From positions 1 through 28,152 of the IMG/VR virus record IMGVR_UViG_638341086_000001: 28,152 bases of DNA; one strand, given 5' to 3'. Every line of letters begins with the position of its first letter. Positions within the stretch are counted from its first letter, which is position 1. Made by a program: the position numbers and the translations under genes. Below are positions 7,205-8,120 of this stretch, piece by piece. The DNA comes from a virus (lineage: Duplodnaviria; Heunggongvirae; Uroviricota; Caudoviricetes). Under the pieces are notes generated by a model. It was not told where the DNA came from and ran no database searches. It saw nothing but the letters and a program-made list of their open reading frames with translations.

Positions 7205-7250
7205 TATGTCAAGATAATAGGTTTACCGATTTCACCTGTCAATCGGTTTA
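7205..7250 (-). promoter_or_regulatory. Leftward (pL-like) sigma70 promoter with overlapping inverted-repeat operator
   Basis: On the minus strand: -35 TTGACA (7242-7237), 17-nt spacer, -10 TATTAT (7219-7214); inverted repeat ACCGATT-N9-AATCGGT (7225-7247) overlaps the -35 and spacer. Confidence 0.45.
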
Positions 7251-7263
7251 TCGATTTTTTCCC

Positions 7264-7290
7264 AAAAAAAAAGCCCACTTAAGAGTGGGC
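7264..7290 (-). terminator. Rho-independent terminator after cI (minus strand)
   Basis: 7-bp GC stem GCCCACT/AGTGGGC with 4-nt loop (7273-7290), followed on the minus strand by a run of nine T (A9 at 7264-7272 on plus); 20 nt after the cI stop. Confidence 0.6.
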
Positions 7291-7308
7291 GGGTTAAATG
7301 ATTTTTGC

Positions 7309-8001
7309 TTATGCAAAACGGTGTAGTGTCATAGGCCAACTGACAATTACTTTTCCGTCAATGTGAAGTTGTTCGAAGTCTTCCGGTTCGATAGCCCAAT
7401 CCTTGTAAGCTGGGTTGTCAGATATCACCGTTAGAGTATCTTTGATTTTTTGAAGTCTTTTGATGTGCGATGTTCCAGAGTATGTAAAGGCGTATATACC
7501 ATCACCATTAAATGTGCGAACTGATACATCTACAAATACCAAGTCTTCAGGGTCTATTGTGCCTTTCATACTGTCGCCGTGGGCGTTTATTGCTTTGATT
7601 GCTGATGCTGGTCTGCCGCCAAAAACTCTTGATGCGTATCCTGGTTCTATCGCTATAGATCTGACAATATCAGGAAAATCAGAGTTATAACTACCAGGTC
7701 CGCAACTATATCTGATGTCTAAAACATCCACGACATACGAATCAGTAACCCAATCTTCAGAAATGTTACGTATTTGGTGTGAGTCTGCAGAGGTCACGAT
7801 TTCCATTGGGCCAACACCCGATGCGAGCCATTCCGGGTTAACGCCCAAAACTTTTGCTATTTCGACTGTTTTTCTGGAACCGTTGGCTTTGTTAAGTAGT
7901 TGATTAACACTGGACTGAGCCATACCCACTTCTTTGGCCAGCCTACCTTGCGTAAATTTTGCGTTGCGCATAGCTAAATCAAGTCGTTCTGAAAATGTCA
8001 T
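7309..8001 (-). CDS. cI-like repressor (N-terminal HTH, C-terminal LexA/S24-type autopeptidase domain)
   Basis: 230 aa; N-terminal HTH (QGRLAKEVGMAQSSVNQLLNK...), C-terminal S24-like region with Ser and Lys-containing motifs (...AHGDSMKGTIDPEDLVFVD...HIKRLQKI...); divergent from the cro-like gene across an operator/promoter region. Confidence 0.8.
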   Translation of the reverse strand: MTFSERLDLAMRNAKFTQGRLAKEVGMAQSSVNQLLNKANGSRKTVEIAKVLGVNPEWLASGVGPMEIVTSADSHQIRNISEDWVTDSYVVDVLDIRYSCGPGSYNSDFPDIVRSIAIEPGYASRVFGGRPASAIKAINAHGDSMKGTIDPEDLVFVDVSVRTFNGDGIYAFTYSGTSHIKRLQKIKDTLTVISDNPAYKDWAIEPEDFEQLHIDGKVIVSWPMTLHRFA

Positions 8002-8120
8002 TGCGATTTTCCTCCCCTCTCTATCTTGGCTAGTTTATCGGCTTTCCGATAAATATTCTAGGTTTAACGTTGAATATCGCTTTTCCTGTTGTTATTATGC
8101 GTTCAATAGGAGATGCGATT
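8002..8120. promoter_or_regulatory. cI-cro divergent control region (operator palindrome and rightward PR-like promoter)
   Basis: Perfect palindrome TTATCGG-CTTT-CCGATAA at 8035-8052; plus-strand promoter -35 TTGAAT (8070-8075), 17-nt spacer, -10 TATTAT (8093-8098); AGGAG RBS at 8108-8112. Confidence 0.55.

What the first reader, a model, noticed from the sequence alone, without database searches (positions are those of the whole stretch)
7205..8120. Immunity region: CCGAT/ATCGG operator half-sites at both leftward and rightward promoters, in opposite relative orientation
Seen: OR-side palindrome TTATCGG-N4-CCGATAA (8035-8052) upstream of a TTGAAT-17-TATTAT rightward promoter; OL-side inverted repeat ACCGATT-N9-AATCGGT (7225-7247) overlapping a TTGACA-17-TATTAT leftward promoter. 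The half-sites share the ATCGG core but have different spacing and orientation. Inference: either one repressor binds both with different geometry, or the leftward site is the target of the adjacent HTH protein (6754-7173) rather than cI.
Basis: partly seen in the sequence, partly recalled or inferred. Interest (0 to 1): 0.4.

Follow-up and report, generated by a model that had tools for sequence, protein, structure and literature searches.

The report
Prophage repressor operators, one shared geometry
The two "differently arranged" repeats are the same kind of 14-bp repressor binding site: one good copy beside the repressor gene and two tandem copies on the leftward promoter, so this is an ordinary lambda/434-style prophage switch with a binding specificity not described before.

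Summary
The "ACCGATT-N9-AATCGGT" repeat, however, is a mis-parse. The leftward promoter carries two tandem 16-nt quasi-palindromes 25 bp apart: AATAGG-TTTA-CCGATT (7216-7231) and AATCGG-TTTA-TCGATT (7241-7256). Each has the same 5-N4-5 geometry as TATCGG-CTTT-CCGATA (8036-8051).

- **Specificity in the window:** AT(C/A)GG-N4-CC(G/T)AT with at most 1 mismatch occurs four times in 28 kb, always in the two regulatory gaps.
- **Conservation:** in 23 OL-gap and 15 OR-gap variants from 27 same-immunity loci, the half-sites are conserved. The centres and the inter-operator stretch vary.
- **Covariation:** six related immunity types keep the architecture with other half-sites. These covary with helix 3 of both the cI-like repressor and the YdaS-type Cro.
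- **The neighbouring HTH protein:** its HTH domain is nearly identical in heteroimmune prophages that carry unrelated operators, so the leftward sites follow cI.

Verdict: a new member of a known kind, working like the phage 434 switch. Binding has not been tested. Interest is low. One unexplained item is a hypervariable 6-nt patch at 7231-7236.

The parts
7216..7231 (.). OL-a operator AATAGG-TTTA-CCGATT (core 7217-7230). It overlaps the -10 hexamer and the spacer of the leftward promoter.
   Evidence: 0 mismatches to ATMGG-N4-CCKAT. Direct-repeat copy D1 and inverted repeat I1. Half-site columns are invariant except G/T at 7228; central positions 3-4 have 3 alleles each.
7241..7256 (.). OL-b operator AATCGG-TTTA-TCGATT (core 7242-7255). 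It overlaps the upstream edge of the -35 of the leftward promoter, 25 bp from OL-a.
   Evidence: 1 mismatch. Second copy of D1. 9 of 10 half-site columns are invariant in 23 variants. The 24-25-bp OL spacing recurs in relatives.
7214..7242 (-). Leftward promoter (PL analogue): -35 TTGACA at 7242..7237, 17-nt spacer, -10 TATTAT at 7219..7214. It drives the operon that starts with the 139-aa HTH gene.
   Evidence: 11 of 12 consensus match. Homologous -10/-35 placement relative to the two operators in relatives.
7231..7236 (.).
   Evidence: 12 alleles in 27 same-immunity loci. Patch divergence is 40% where the cI gene differs by 0.7%.
7264..7290 (-). Intrinsic terminator after the repressor gene: GCCCACT-CTTA-AGTGGGC followed by a T9 run.
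7309..8001 (-). cI-like repressor, 230 aa. N-terminal 434-like HTH (helix 3 AQSSVNQLLN, Gln29 and Gln34) and C-terminal Peptidase_S24 domain (Ser144, Lys181; candidate cleavage site Cys100-Gly101).
   Evidence: Pfam PF00717 at 7.5e-17 plus HTH families. phrog_4 'transcriptional repressor'. The best PDB sequence hit of the N-terminus is the 434 repressor; the C-terminus aligns to UmuD across GDSM and KRLQ.
8034..8053 (.). O3 operator TTTATCGG-CTTT-CCGATAAA (core 8037-8050). It is the best site, nearest the repressor gene. By inference it overlaps the repressor's maintenance promoter.
   Evidence: Perfect 8+8 palindrome (I17). 0 mismatches. 9 of 10 half-site columns are invariant. A perfect O3 at the same position in all six related immunity types.
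8058..8071 (.). O2, a weak operator-like site CTAGG-TTTA-ACGTT that abuts or overlaps the -35 of the rightward promoter. Inferred.
   Evidence: 3 mismatches, which is chance level taken alone. Similarity to the OL-a region (D2). Positional counterpart of O2 in relatives. The left half varies among variants.
8076..8089 (.). O1, an operator-like site ATCGC-TTTT-CCTGT inside the spacer of the rightward promoter. Inferred.
   Evidence: 2 mismatches. It is ATCGA-TTTA-CCTAT in the L019 variant. The closest relative group, L023/L024, has a site in the same spacer placement.
8070..8098 (+). Rightward promoter (PR analogue): TTGAAT-17-TATTAT with TG before the -10.
8106..8119 (.). Candidate fourth site ATAGG-AGAT-GCGAT, between the PR -10 and the cro start codon, over the cro Shine-Dalgarno sequence.
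   Evidence: 1 mismatch. Counterparts that match their own consensus in L028/L031 (1 mismatch) and L023/L024 (2 mismatches). Its conservation is confounded by translation signals.
8121..8408 (+). Cro analogue, 95 aa, YdaS family. Helix 3 is AQSTVCDWLN and shares AQS(S/T)V with the repressor.
   Evidence: PF15943 at 1e-14. phrog_35. cI/Cro helix-3 sharing in all seven specificity groups.
6754..7173 (-). First gene of the leftward operon: 139-aa protein with a C-terminal XRE-type HTH (residues 72-131). It is not the operator binder.
   Evidence: PF01381 at 2.3e-10. phrog_4836. The HTH domain is shared with heteroimmune prophages.
8032..8060 (-). Putative maintenance promoter for the repressor: -35 TAGAAT at 8060..8055 and -10 TAAACT at 8037..8032. 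Inference only.
   Evidence: Read from the sequence. It was not reported by the consensus scan. In relatives a -10-like hexamer likewise overlaps the cI-proximal half of O3.

Best explanation
This is the immunity switch of an E. coli lambdoid prophage, and it works like that of phage 434.

A LexA/cI-type repressor (7309-8001, minus strand) binds as a dimer to 14-bp operators of the form AT(C/A)GG-N4-CC(G/T)AT. By inference, the YdaS-family Cro (8121-8408) binds the same operators.

At the leftward promoter, two such operators sit 25 bp apart. OL-a covers the -10 and spacer, and OL-b covers the upstream edge of the -35. Bound repressor would therefore exclude RNA polymerase and silence the operon that begins with the 139-aa HTH gene.

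Between the divergent cI and cro genes there is one perfect operator, O3 (8037-8050), next to cI. Two degenerate sites lie at the -35 (O2) and in the spacer (O1) of the rightward promoter. A candidate fourth site lies at the transcription start and cro ribosome-binding site.

Shown: the sequence anatomy, the restriction of the sites to the two regulatory gaps, their conservation, and the covariation with the recognition helices.

Inferred: actual binding, the order of occupancy, cooperative filling of O1 and O2, the position of the maintenance promoter over O3, and RecA-stimulated self-cleavage (Cys100-Gly101, Ser144/Lys181) as the induction route.
For: 1. Tandem units. (D1/I1) finds two 16-17-nt direct copies, each a quasi-palindrome with the OR geometry.

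2. Restriction to the regulatory gaps. In one search the pattern with at most 1 mismatch gives 4 hits in 28,152 bp, at 7217, 7242, 8037 and 8106. All lie in the 254 bp of the two regulatory gaps. At the shuffled-sequence density (2.40 per window) about 0.02 hits are expected there. An a-priori pattern built from O3 alone still puts 2 non-seed hits in the 135-bp OL gap against 0.045 expected, P about 1e-3.

3. Conservation. Across 23 OL and 15 OR variants, 3 of 30 half-site columns of OL-a, OL-b and O3 vary, against 67 of 153 other intergenic columns (Fisher P = 3.6e-4). The N4 centres and the inter-operator stretch vary.

4. Related immunity types. Six types keep three sites in OR and 2-3 sites at OL spaced 24-25 bp (with a third at +20/21), but with half-sites ATCGC, ATAGC, ACAAC, ATAAC and ATACG.

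5. Covariation. In every group cI and Cro share the first 5-6 residues of helix 3, and these change with the half-site. For example NQLLN with ATCGG in the window against NKLLN with ATCGC in L023.

6. Structural relative. The best solved relative of the DNA-binding domain is the 434 repressor, with the Gln28 and Gln33 equivalents conserved.

7. The HTH protein. Its HTH domain is the same in heteroimmune prophages that carry different OL repeats.
Against: - There are no binding or expression data.
- O1 and O2 match the consensus poorly (2 and 3 mismatches, which is chance level taken alone). They rest on positional homology.
- The best site is O3, on the cI side, whereas in lambda OR1 at PR is strongest. 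The order of occupancy, and hence the logic of the switch, is therefore unknown.
- Conservation of OL-a's left half and of the 8106 site is confounded by the -10 hexamer and the cro ribosome-binding site.
- The aligned prophages are related, so the Fisher test overstates independence.
- cI and Cro cannot be separated as the binder by sequence alone.
Confidence: 0.85

Rival explanations
1. One repressor binds two different geometries: an inverted N4 site at OR and an everted N9 site at OL.
For: The strings exist as described. The inner halves ACCGATT and AATCGGT are perfectly complementary.
Against: - It leaves unexplained the conserved outer halves AATAGG and TCGATT, which complete two N4 sites.
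- A 16-bp centre-to-centre everted arrangement puts the half-sites on different faces of the helix and in reversed polarity, which a symmetric HTH dimer cannot match. This rests on established knowledge of 434 and lambda complexes.
- The CCGAT->CCTAT variants improve OL-a's internal symmetry and degrade the N9 repeat.
- All six related immunity types show the same two-operator arrangement 24-25 bp apart.
Confidence: 0.03
2. The leftward repeat is the autoregulatory target of the adjacent 139-aa HTH protein rather than of cI.
For: The gene lies immediately downstream of the promoter and has a bona fide HTH_3 domain. Autoregulation by a first-gene product is common.
Against: - The HTH domain is the same in phi467-type (1 of 68 residues differs), SF-088-type and phiP27 prophages. 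Their OL regions carry other repeats that match their own OR.
- Its helix 3, DEEIIIQWE, is acidic and unlike the AQSSV / AQSTV helices that covary with the half-sites.
- The sites have the same form as O3, next to cI.
Confidence: 0.05
3. The palindromes act as nucleic-acid hairpins (RNA leader structure, terminator or cruciform) rather than as protein operators.
For: The cI leader strand can fold the O3 palindrome into an 8-bp hairpin.
Against: - The fold is not better than shuffled sequence (z = -1.24; 15 of 200 shuffles fold at least as well).
- No T-run follows it, so it is not called as a terminator.
- There is no Rfam match in the region.
- The OL sites are imperfect palindromes at fixed spacing over promoter elements.
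- The half-sites covary with protein recognition helices.
Confidence: 0.02
4. The sites are used mainly by the YdaS-type Cro, and the cI-like protein recognises something else.
For: Cro helix 3 covaries with the half-sites as well as cI's does. YdaS of CP-933P was shown to bind that prophage's operators (PMC8630535).
Against: cI helix 3 covaries equally well and shares its first residues with Cro in all seven groups. No other repeated motif is shared by the two gaps. In CP-933P and in lambda/434 both proteins compete for the same sites (PMC8630535, PMC6649833).
Confidence: 0.05

Closest known systems
Phage 434 immunity region (cI, Cro, OR1-3, OL1-3)
   Same: - The operators are 14 bp, symmetric about a point between base pairs, with five outer positions per half and four variable central positions.
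- The repressor has an N-terminal HTH and a self-cleaving C-terminal domain.
- The best PDB sequence match of the DNA-binding domain is the 434 repressor, with the Gln28 and Gln33 equivalents conserved.
- cI and Cro share the start of the recognition helix. From my own knowledge, 434 cI and Cro both begin this helix with QQS.
- The central bases vary, as expected for indirect readout (PMC3317979 for 434 and P22).
   Different: - The half-site is AT(C/A)GG, not ACAA(G/T).
- The similarity to the 434 repressor is weak (E = 4e-4; the HMMER alignments span up to query residues 4-64).
- Cro is a YdaS-family protein.
- Only two OL sites are present.
- The OR spacings are 21 and 18 bp.
- O1 and O2 are much weaker matches than O3.
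- The cI mRNA has a leader with a Shine-Dalgarno sequence.
Phage lambda OL/OR-PL/PR/PRM architecture
   Same: Divergent cI and cro genes; operators overlapping PR and PL; a site next to cI placed over the presumed maintenance promoter; tandem operators about 24-25 bp apart at PL.
   Different: The operators are 14 bp with an even centre, not 17 bp with a central base pair. The first PL gene is an HTH protein rather than N. OL lies only about 800 bp from OR, directly after the cI terminator.
CP-933P cryptic prophage switch PaaR2/YdaS/YdaT (PMC8630535)
   Same: An E. coli lambdoid immunity region with a YdaS-family Cro analogue. Operators of one type occur in the intergenic region and again at a PL-like promoter. 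A ParE-family toxin-like gene lies in the leftward operon of this prophage (RefSeq annotation).
   Different: The CP-933P repressor, PaaR2, is a small HTH protein without an S24 domain. Its palindromes are 18 bp with the consensus GTTTAGTAA, and its cII analogue is YdaT. None of these is present here.
cI repressors of Klebsiella phages (Mulock, ST13-OXA48phi12.5) and P22-like Salmonella phages BTP1, ST104 and ST160
   Same: These are the closest named phage homologues of the repressor (44-52% identity over the full length). They belong to the same cI family as the related loci analysed here.
   Different: They have different recognition helices and hence, by inference, different immunity. I found no operator description for them and did not examine their DNA.

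Membership tests
Lambdoid cI/Cro immunity region | Divergently transcribed repressor and cro genes separated by a short regulatory gap | tested here: met
   cI at 7309-8001 (minus strand) and cro at 8121-8408 (plus strand), with a 119-bp gap.
Lambdoid cI/Cro immunity region | Repressor with an N-terminal HTH and a C-terminal S24 (LexA-like) self-cleaving domain carrying a Ser/Lys dyad | tested here: met
   PF00717 at 7.5e-17 plus HTH families. GDSM and KRLQ align to UmuD. The cleavage site Cys100-Gly101 is inferred only.
Lambdoid cI/Cro immunity region | Several related imperfect palindromes in OR that overlap PR and the repressor's own promoter | tested here: inconclusive
   O3 is perfect and conserved. 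O1 and O2 are weak matches supported by positional homology only. The maintenance promoter was not detected by the scan.
Lambdoid cI/Cro immunity region | Operators of the same type at a second, leftward early promoter (OL/PL) | tested here: met
   OL-a and OL-b have 0 and 1 mismatch and lie over the -10/spacer and the -35 of a promoter matching 11 of 12 consensus positions.
Lambdoid cI/Cro immunity region | Operator sequence coevolves with the recognition helices of cI and Cro | tested here: met
   Seven specificity groups form consistent helix-3 / half-site triads. The concept is described in PMC6649833.
Lambdoid cI/Cro immunity region | Repressor and Cro physically bind the operators and repress PL and PR | not testable with these tools
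   Needs EMSA or footprinting and reporter fusions.
434-type operator and repressor | 14-bp operator, 5-N4-5, with non-conserved central base pairs | tested here: met
   Geometry. The centres vary while the half-sites are conserved.
434-type operator and repressor | Outer ACAA / TTGT bases (434 specificity, that is, imm434) | tested here: not met
   The half-site is AT(C/A)GG. Only the related group L029/L035/L070 has ACAAC. This prophage works like 434 but is not imm434.
434-type operator and repressor | DNA-binding domain homologous to the 434 repressor N-terminal domain | tested here: met
   The best PDB hits are 2r63, 1per and 2or1, E = 3.6e-4 to 4e-4, aligned across helices 2-3. The similarity is weak but specific.
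   The same HTH domain occurs with unrelated OL repeats in L086/L090, L087 and L089.

The most novel reading that the evidence does not exclude
It consists of the two inner half-sites and the 6-nt patch between them (7231-7236). That patch diverges about 30-60 times faster than the adjacent repressor gene among otherwise near-identical prophages. This could mark a mutational hot spot in the loop of an ACCGATT-N9-AATCGGT single-strand hairpin. It could instead reflect diversifying selection on the PL spacer or on inter-dimer cooperativity, that is, a tunable element inside a prophage early promoter.
Probability: 0.08. Interest if true: 0.5.

Novelty: new member of a known kind. Interest (0 to 1): 0.2.

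Why it matters
The result removes an apparent anomaly: no repressor here needs two binding geometries. It assigns a concrete operator consensus and promoter map to an immunity type found in at least 24 of 5,426 complete E. coli genomes.

The by-product may be more useful than the site itself. It is a set of seven related specificity groups in which repressor helix 3, Cro helix 3 and the operator half-site change together. One example is a single Gln/Lys difference paired with a G/C change at half-site position 5. This is ready material for testing recognition "codes" of 434-like HTH domains and for predicting superinfection immunity between enterobacterial prophages.

Tried and rejected
- **Whole-window enrichment.** The total number of pattern hits in the window is not above chance (4 against 2.4 expected; 27 against 30). 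Only their location is informative, so I did not claim global enrichment.
- **Genome-collection scan.** The scan with the repressor gave only 4 loci. The viral collection and E. coli genomes supplied the comparative set.
- **Named phages.** DNA search against named phages found no phage with this immunity region. Only the 3' part of the HTH gene matched.
- **RNA structure.** The Rfam scan found nothing in 7170-8120. The RNA fold of the O3 palindrome is not significant.
- **The 139-aa HTH protein.** PDB and NCBIfam searches gave only generic XRE-domain hits. No solved structure matched by sequence beyond generic XRE domains (PaaR2 of CP-933P included), and its relation to PaaR2 was not resolved.
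- **Literature.** Full-text search for the operator strings found nothing. Searches on phiP27 and on 434 contact residues gave nothing usable. Statements about 434 residue-base contacts therefore rest on my own knowledge of Aggarwal et al. 1988 and Anderson et al. 1987.
- **Patch versus HTH protein.** I tested whether the hypervariable patch tracks variants of the HTH protein's N-terminus. It does not.
- **LexA box.** I considered a host LexA box in the PR spacer (CTGT...). No ACAG partner is present in the sequence read.
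Full report
**Observation check**

- TTTATCGG-CTTT-CCGATAAA lies at 8034-8053.
- ACCGATT-N9-AATCGGT lies at 7225-7247.

The consensus scan finds both promoters.
- Rightward: TTGAAT-17-TATTAT at 8070-8098.
- Leftward: TTGACA-17-TATTAT, with -35 at 7242..7237 and -10 at 7219..7214, matching 11 of 12 consensus positions.

The scan also finds an intrinsic terminator at 7290..7273 followed by a T-run. It lies directly after the repressor gene and about 20 bp before the leftward promoter.

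**Genes**

- The ORF at 7309-8001 (minus strand, 230 aa) has a Peptidase_S24 domain (7.5e-17) and an N-terminal HTH (phrog_4).
- The ORF at 8121-8408 (plus strand, 95 aa) is a YdaS-family HTH protein, the Cro analogue.
- The ORF at 6754-7173 (minus strand, 139 aa) carries an HTH_3 domain in its C-terminal half, residues 72-131.

The window is a lambdoid prophage of E. coli. A prophage about 99.8% identical over 6700-8450 sits next to yecE in strain JNEC-KY202. It has integrase, excisionase, replication, antitermination and lysis genes in the usual order.

**The key re-reading**

The repeat finder (D1 and I1) shows that the leftward region contains two direct copies of a 16-17-nt unit whose starts are 25 bp apart:
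- AATAGGTTTACCGATT(T) at 7216-7231/7232
- AATCGGTTTATCGATT(T) at 7241-7256/7257

Each copy is itself a quasi-palindrome of the form 6-N4-6. This is the geometry of TATCGG-CTTT-CCGATA at 8036-8051.

The outer halves, AATAGG and TCGATT, were overlooked. There is no difference in spacing or orientation between the leftward and rightward sites.

**Is it more than chance?**

- An a-priori pattern built from O3 alone (TATCGG-N4-CCGATA, up to 3 mismatches) gives 13 hits in the window against 9.3 expected. Two of the 12 non-seed hits fall in the 135-bp gap between cI and the HTH gene, where 0.045 are expected (Poisson P about 1e-3, my arithmetic).
- Allowing the C/A alternative seen in the sites gives AT(C/A)GG-N4-CC(G/T)AT. 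With at most 1 mismatch this pattern has only four hits in 28,152 bp, at 7217, 7242, 8037 and 8106. All four lie in the 254 bp of the two regulatory gaps. The shuffled-sequence density predicts about 0.02 hits there.
- The total number of hits in the window is not above chance. Only their location is informative.
- The sites I call O1 (8076-8089, 2 mismatches) and O2 (8058-8071, 3 mismatches) are individually at chance level.

**Phylogenetic footprint within the same immunity type**

I collected 27 loci whose repressor is 89-100% identical. They give 23 distinct sequences of the leftward gap and 15 of the cI-cro gap.

- In OL-a, OL-b and O3, 3 of 30 half-site columns vary, and always at one position of a half-site: position 3 (C to A, read as G to T on the partner half) in O3 and OL-a, and position 4 in OL-b's right half.
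- Of the other intergenic columns outside the promoter hexamers, 67 of 153 vary (Fisher P = 3.6e-4). The sequences are related, so this P value is indicative only.
- The N4 centre of OL-a (TTTA, TTCG, TTTG, TTAT) and the stretch between the two operators vary freely.
- TCGAT at 7251-7255 lies upstream of the -35, outside any promoter hexamer. It is kept in 22 of 23 variants.
- In six loci (L019, L020, L021, L091, L093, L094), the right half of OL-a is CCTAT.

**Related immunity types**

Relatives with 43-49% identical repressors fall into groups with different recognition helices. Each group has the same architecture with a different half-site.
- There are three 5-N4-5 sites between cI and cro.
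- The one nearest cI is a perfect palindrome.
- Another site lies at the -35 of PR, and another lies in the PR spacer or over the PR -10.
- Two or three sites sit at a leftward promoter 1.4-2.5 kb away, spaced 24-25 bp with a third at +20/21.
- The -10 of that promoter overlaps the first site, and a TTGACA -35 abuts the second.

This is the arrangement at 7214-7256 in the window.

| Group | Half-site | cI helix 3 | Cro helix 3 |
|---|---|---|---|
| window | AT(C/A)GG | AQSSVNQLLN | AQSTVCDWLN |
| L023/L024 | ATCGC | AQSSVNKLLN | AQSTICDWLN |
| L028/L031 | ATAGC | AQPSVWKL | KQPSVWAW |
| L074 | ATAGC | SQPSVWKL | SQPTVWAW |
| L029/L035 | ACAAC | SQAAIQKL | SQAAVQKW |
| L034 | ATAAC | SQPAIQKM | SQPAVHKW |
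| L076/L077 | ATACG | AQPTIWRL | AQPTVWRW |

In every group the repressor and the YdaS-type Cro share the first five or six residues of helix 3, and these residues change together with the half-site. This three-way covariation is the strongest evidence that the 14-bp sites are the operators of cI and Cro. That cI and Cro coevolve with their operators is established for lambdoid phages (PMC6649833).

**Relation to phage 434**

The best solved relative of the N-terminal domain is the 434 repressor (E = 4e-4). In that alignment GMAQSSVNQLLN pairs with GTTQQSIEQLEN.
- Gln29 corresponds to 434 Gln28. Position 1 of the half-site is A in all seven groups.
- Gln34 corresponds to 434 Gln33. The L023 group has Lys at this position, and its operators differ from those of the window at half-site position 5 (C instead of G).

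Which 434 residues contact which bases is from my own knowledge of the 434 co-crystal structures (Anderson et al. 1987; Aggarwal et al. 1988); I did not check it with a tool.

A 14-bp operator with a variable, probably non-contacted centre is the 434 pattern. Central A/T tracts raise affinity in 434 and P22 through indirect readout (PMC3317979). In all groups the centre of O3 starts with C or is G+C-richer than those of O1 and O2. This could lower the affinity of O3 despite its perfect half-sites. That point is speculation.

**The adjacent HTH protein**

About 300 further E. coli genomes match only the 3' 200 nt of its gene. I examined phi467-type, SF-088-type and phiP27 prophages.
- The gene order HTH gene, cI, then divergent cro is the same.
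- The C-terminal HTH domain is nearly identical: 1 of 68 residues differs in the phi467 type. The helix-turn-helix segment LTTAELARLLDLDEEIIIQWESG is identical in three of the four loci compared and has one substitution (R to M) in phiP27.
- The repressors are different, and both regulatory gaps carry other repeats: CTTGAT-type in phi467 and GATAC...GTATC-type in phiP27. In each phage these repeats are shared between its own OL and OR.

The leftward operators therefore travel with cI and not with the HTH domain. In addition, helix 3 of this protein is acidic (DEEIIIQWE) and unlike the covarying helices.

**Mechanism**

In the lysogen, repressor dimers occupy OL-a and OL-b and block the near-consensus leftward promoter. 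They also occupy the OR sites and block PR. The weak O1 and O2 probably need cooperative help. Their spacings to O3 are 21 and 18 bp.

O3 overlaps a weak promoter-like pair on the cI strand, TAGAAT-17-TAAACT at 8060..8032. This would place it where lambda OR3 lies relative to PRM. That promoter is my inference. The scan did not call it.

Induction would follow RecA-stimulated self-cleavage. GDSM (Ser144) and KRLQ (Lys181) align with UmuD. Cys100-Gly101 is a candidate cleavage site of the UmuD type (inference). Cro would then bind the same sites.

None of this has been tested experimentally. A literature search for the operator strings found nothing, and no named phage carries this immunity region.

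**Rivals**

- RNA or DNA hairpin: not supported. The fold z-score is -1.24, there is no Rfam match in the region, and no T-run follows the palindrome.
- Two-geometry binding: not needed, and contradicted by the conserved outer halves.
- Cro as the only binder: sequence alone cannot exclude it. It is unlikely because both helices covary with the half-sites.

**Verdict**

This is an ordinary lambdoid immunity switch that works like that of phage 434, with an operator specificity not described before. It is a new member of a known kind. The anomaly that motivated the finding is an artefact of how the repeats were paired.

**Noticed in passing**

1. The 6-nt patch 7231-7236 between OL-a and the -35 is hypervariable. 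There are 12 alleles in 27 loci. The patch differs at 40% of positions in pairs whose cI genes differ by 0.7%. It does not track variants of the HTH protein. I have no explanation.
2. A fourth operator-like site at 8106-8119 lies over the cro ribosome-binding site. It has counterparts in two related groups.
3. The N-terminal domain of the HTH protein differs between the three immunity types compared. It belongs to the same PHROG family as the next small ORF downstream.

Noticed in passing
window 7231-7236: A hypervariable 6-nt patch lies between OL-a and the -35 of the leftward promoter. There are 12 alleles among 27 same-immunity loci. Pairs whose cI genes differ at 0.7% of positions differ at 40% of patch positions. 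All 5 columns 7232-7236 have 3 or more alleles, against 15 of 693 columns in cI. This is far above what relaxed constraint alone should give, and it is unexplained.
   Followed up: partly
window 8106-8119: ATAGGAGATGCGAT is a fourth operator-like site with 1 mismatch, between the PR -10 and the cro ATG, over the cro Shine-Dalgarno sequence. Sites at the same place match their own group consensus in L028/L031 (AAAGCAGGAGCTAT) and L023/L024. It may be a real downstream operator, or a by-product of conserved translation signals.
   Followed up: partly
window 6754-7173 (minus strand) and 6561-6785 (minus strand): The 139-aa HTH protein is modular. Its C-terminal HTH domain is almost invariant across heteroimmune prophages, with a mosaic joint near 6957. 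Its N-terminal ~70 residues differ between the three immunity types compared. Its helix 3 is acidic (DEEIIIQWE). Its N-terminal part hits phrog_4587, the same family as the 74-aa ORF immediately downstream. PHROGs names its family (phrog_4836) 'CII-like regulator'. Its role is unknown.
   Followed up: partly
related loci L023-L084 and the window: There are seven specificity groups in which cI helix 3, Cro helix 3 and the operator half-site change together. They include a minimal pair: the window with NQLLN and ATCGG against L023 with NKLLN and ATCGC. This is a usable data set for HTH recognition rules.
   Followed up: yes
window 1175-2388, with an Rfam ALIL match at 1456-1572: An IS3-family insertion sequence: two overlapping ORFs (1175-1501 and 1501-2388) with the ALIL frameshift pseudoknot at their junction (119 bits).
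   Followed up: no
window 13721-13973: Two prophage-borne small RNAs are called by Rfam back to back: STnc100 (13721-13911, plus strand, 145 bits) and the anti-GcvB sRNA AgvB (13912-13973, minus strand, 96.5 bits).
   Followed up: no
window 5423-5641 (minus strand); also 3961-4788 (minus strand): In the leftward operon, RefSeq annotates the near-identical prophage's counterpart of 5423-5641 as a ParE family toxin-like protein. It annotates the counterpart of 3961-4788 as an SPFH-domain protein. The ParE-like gene recalls the paaR2-paaA2-parE2 module of CP-933P, but no PaaR or PaaA counterpart was identified.
   Followed up: no
window 7264-7272: The A-run (a T-run on the cI strand) of the cI terminator varies in length (7-10 A) among otherwise near-identical prophages, as does the adjacent T/C run.
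   Followed up: no
window 7309-8001 (minus strand), residues 98-103: The repressor has Cys-Gly (YSCGPG), not Ala-Gly, at the position expected for the self-cleavage site. This resembles the Cys24-Gly25 site of UmuD. The heteroimmune phi467-type repressor has the same SCG motif.
   Followed up: no
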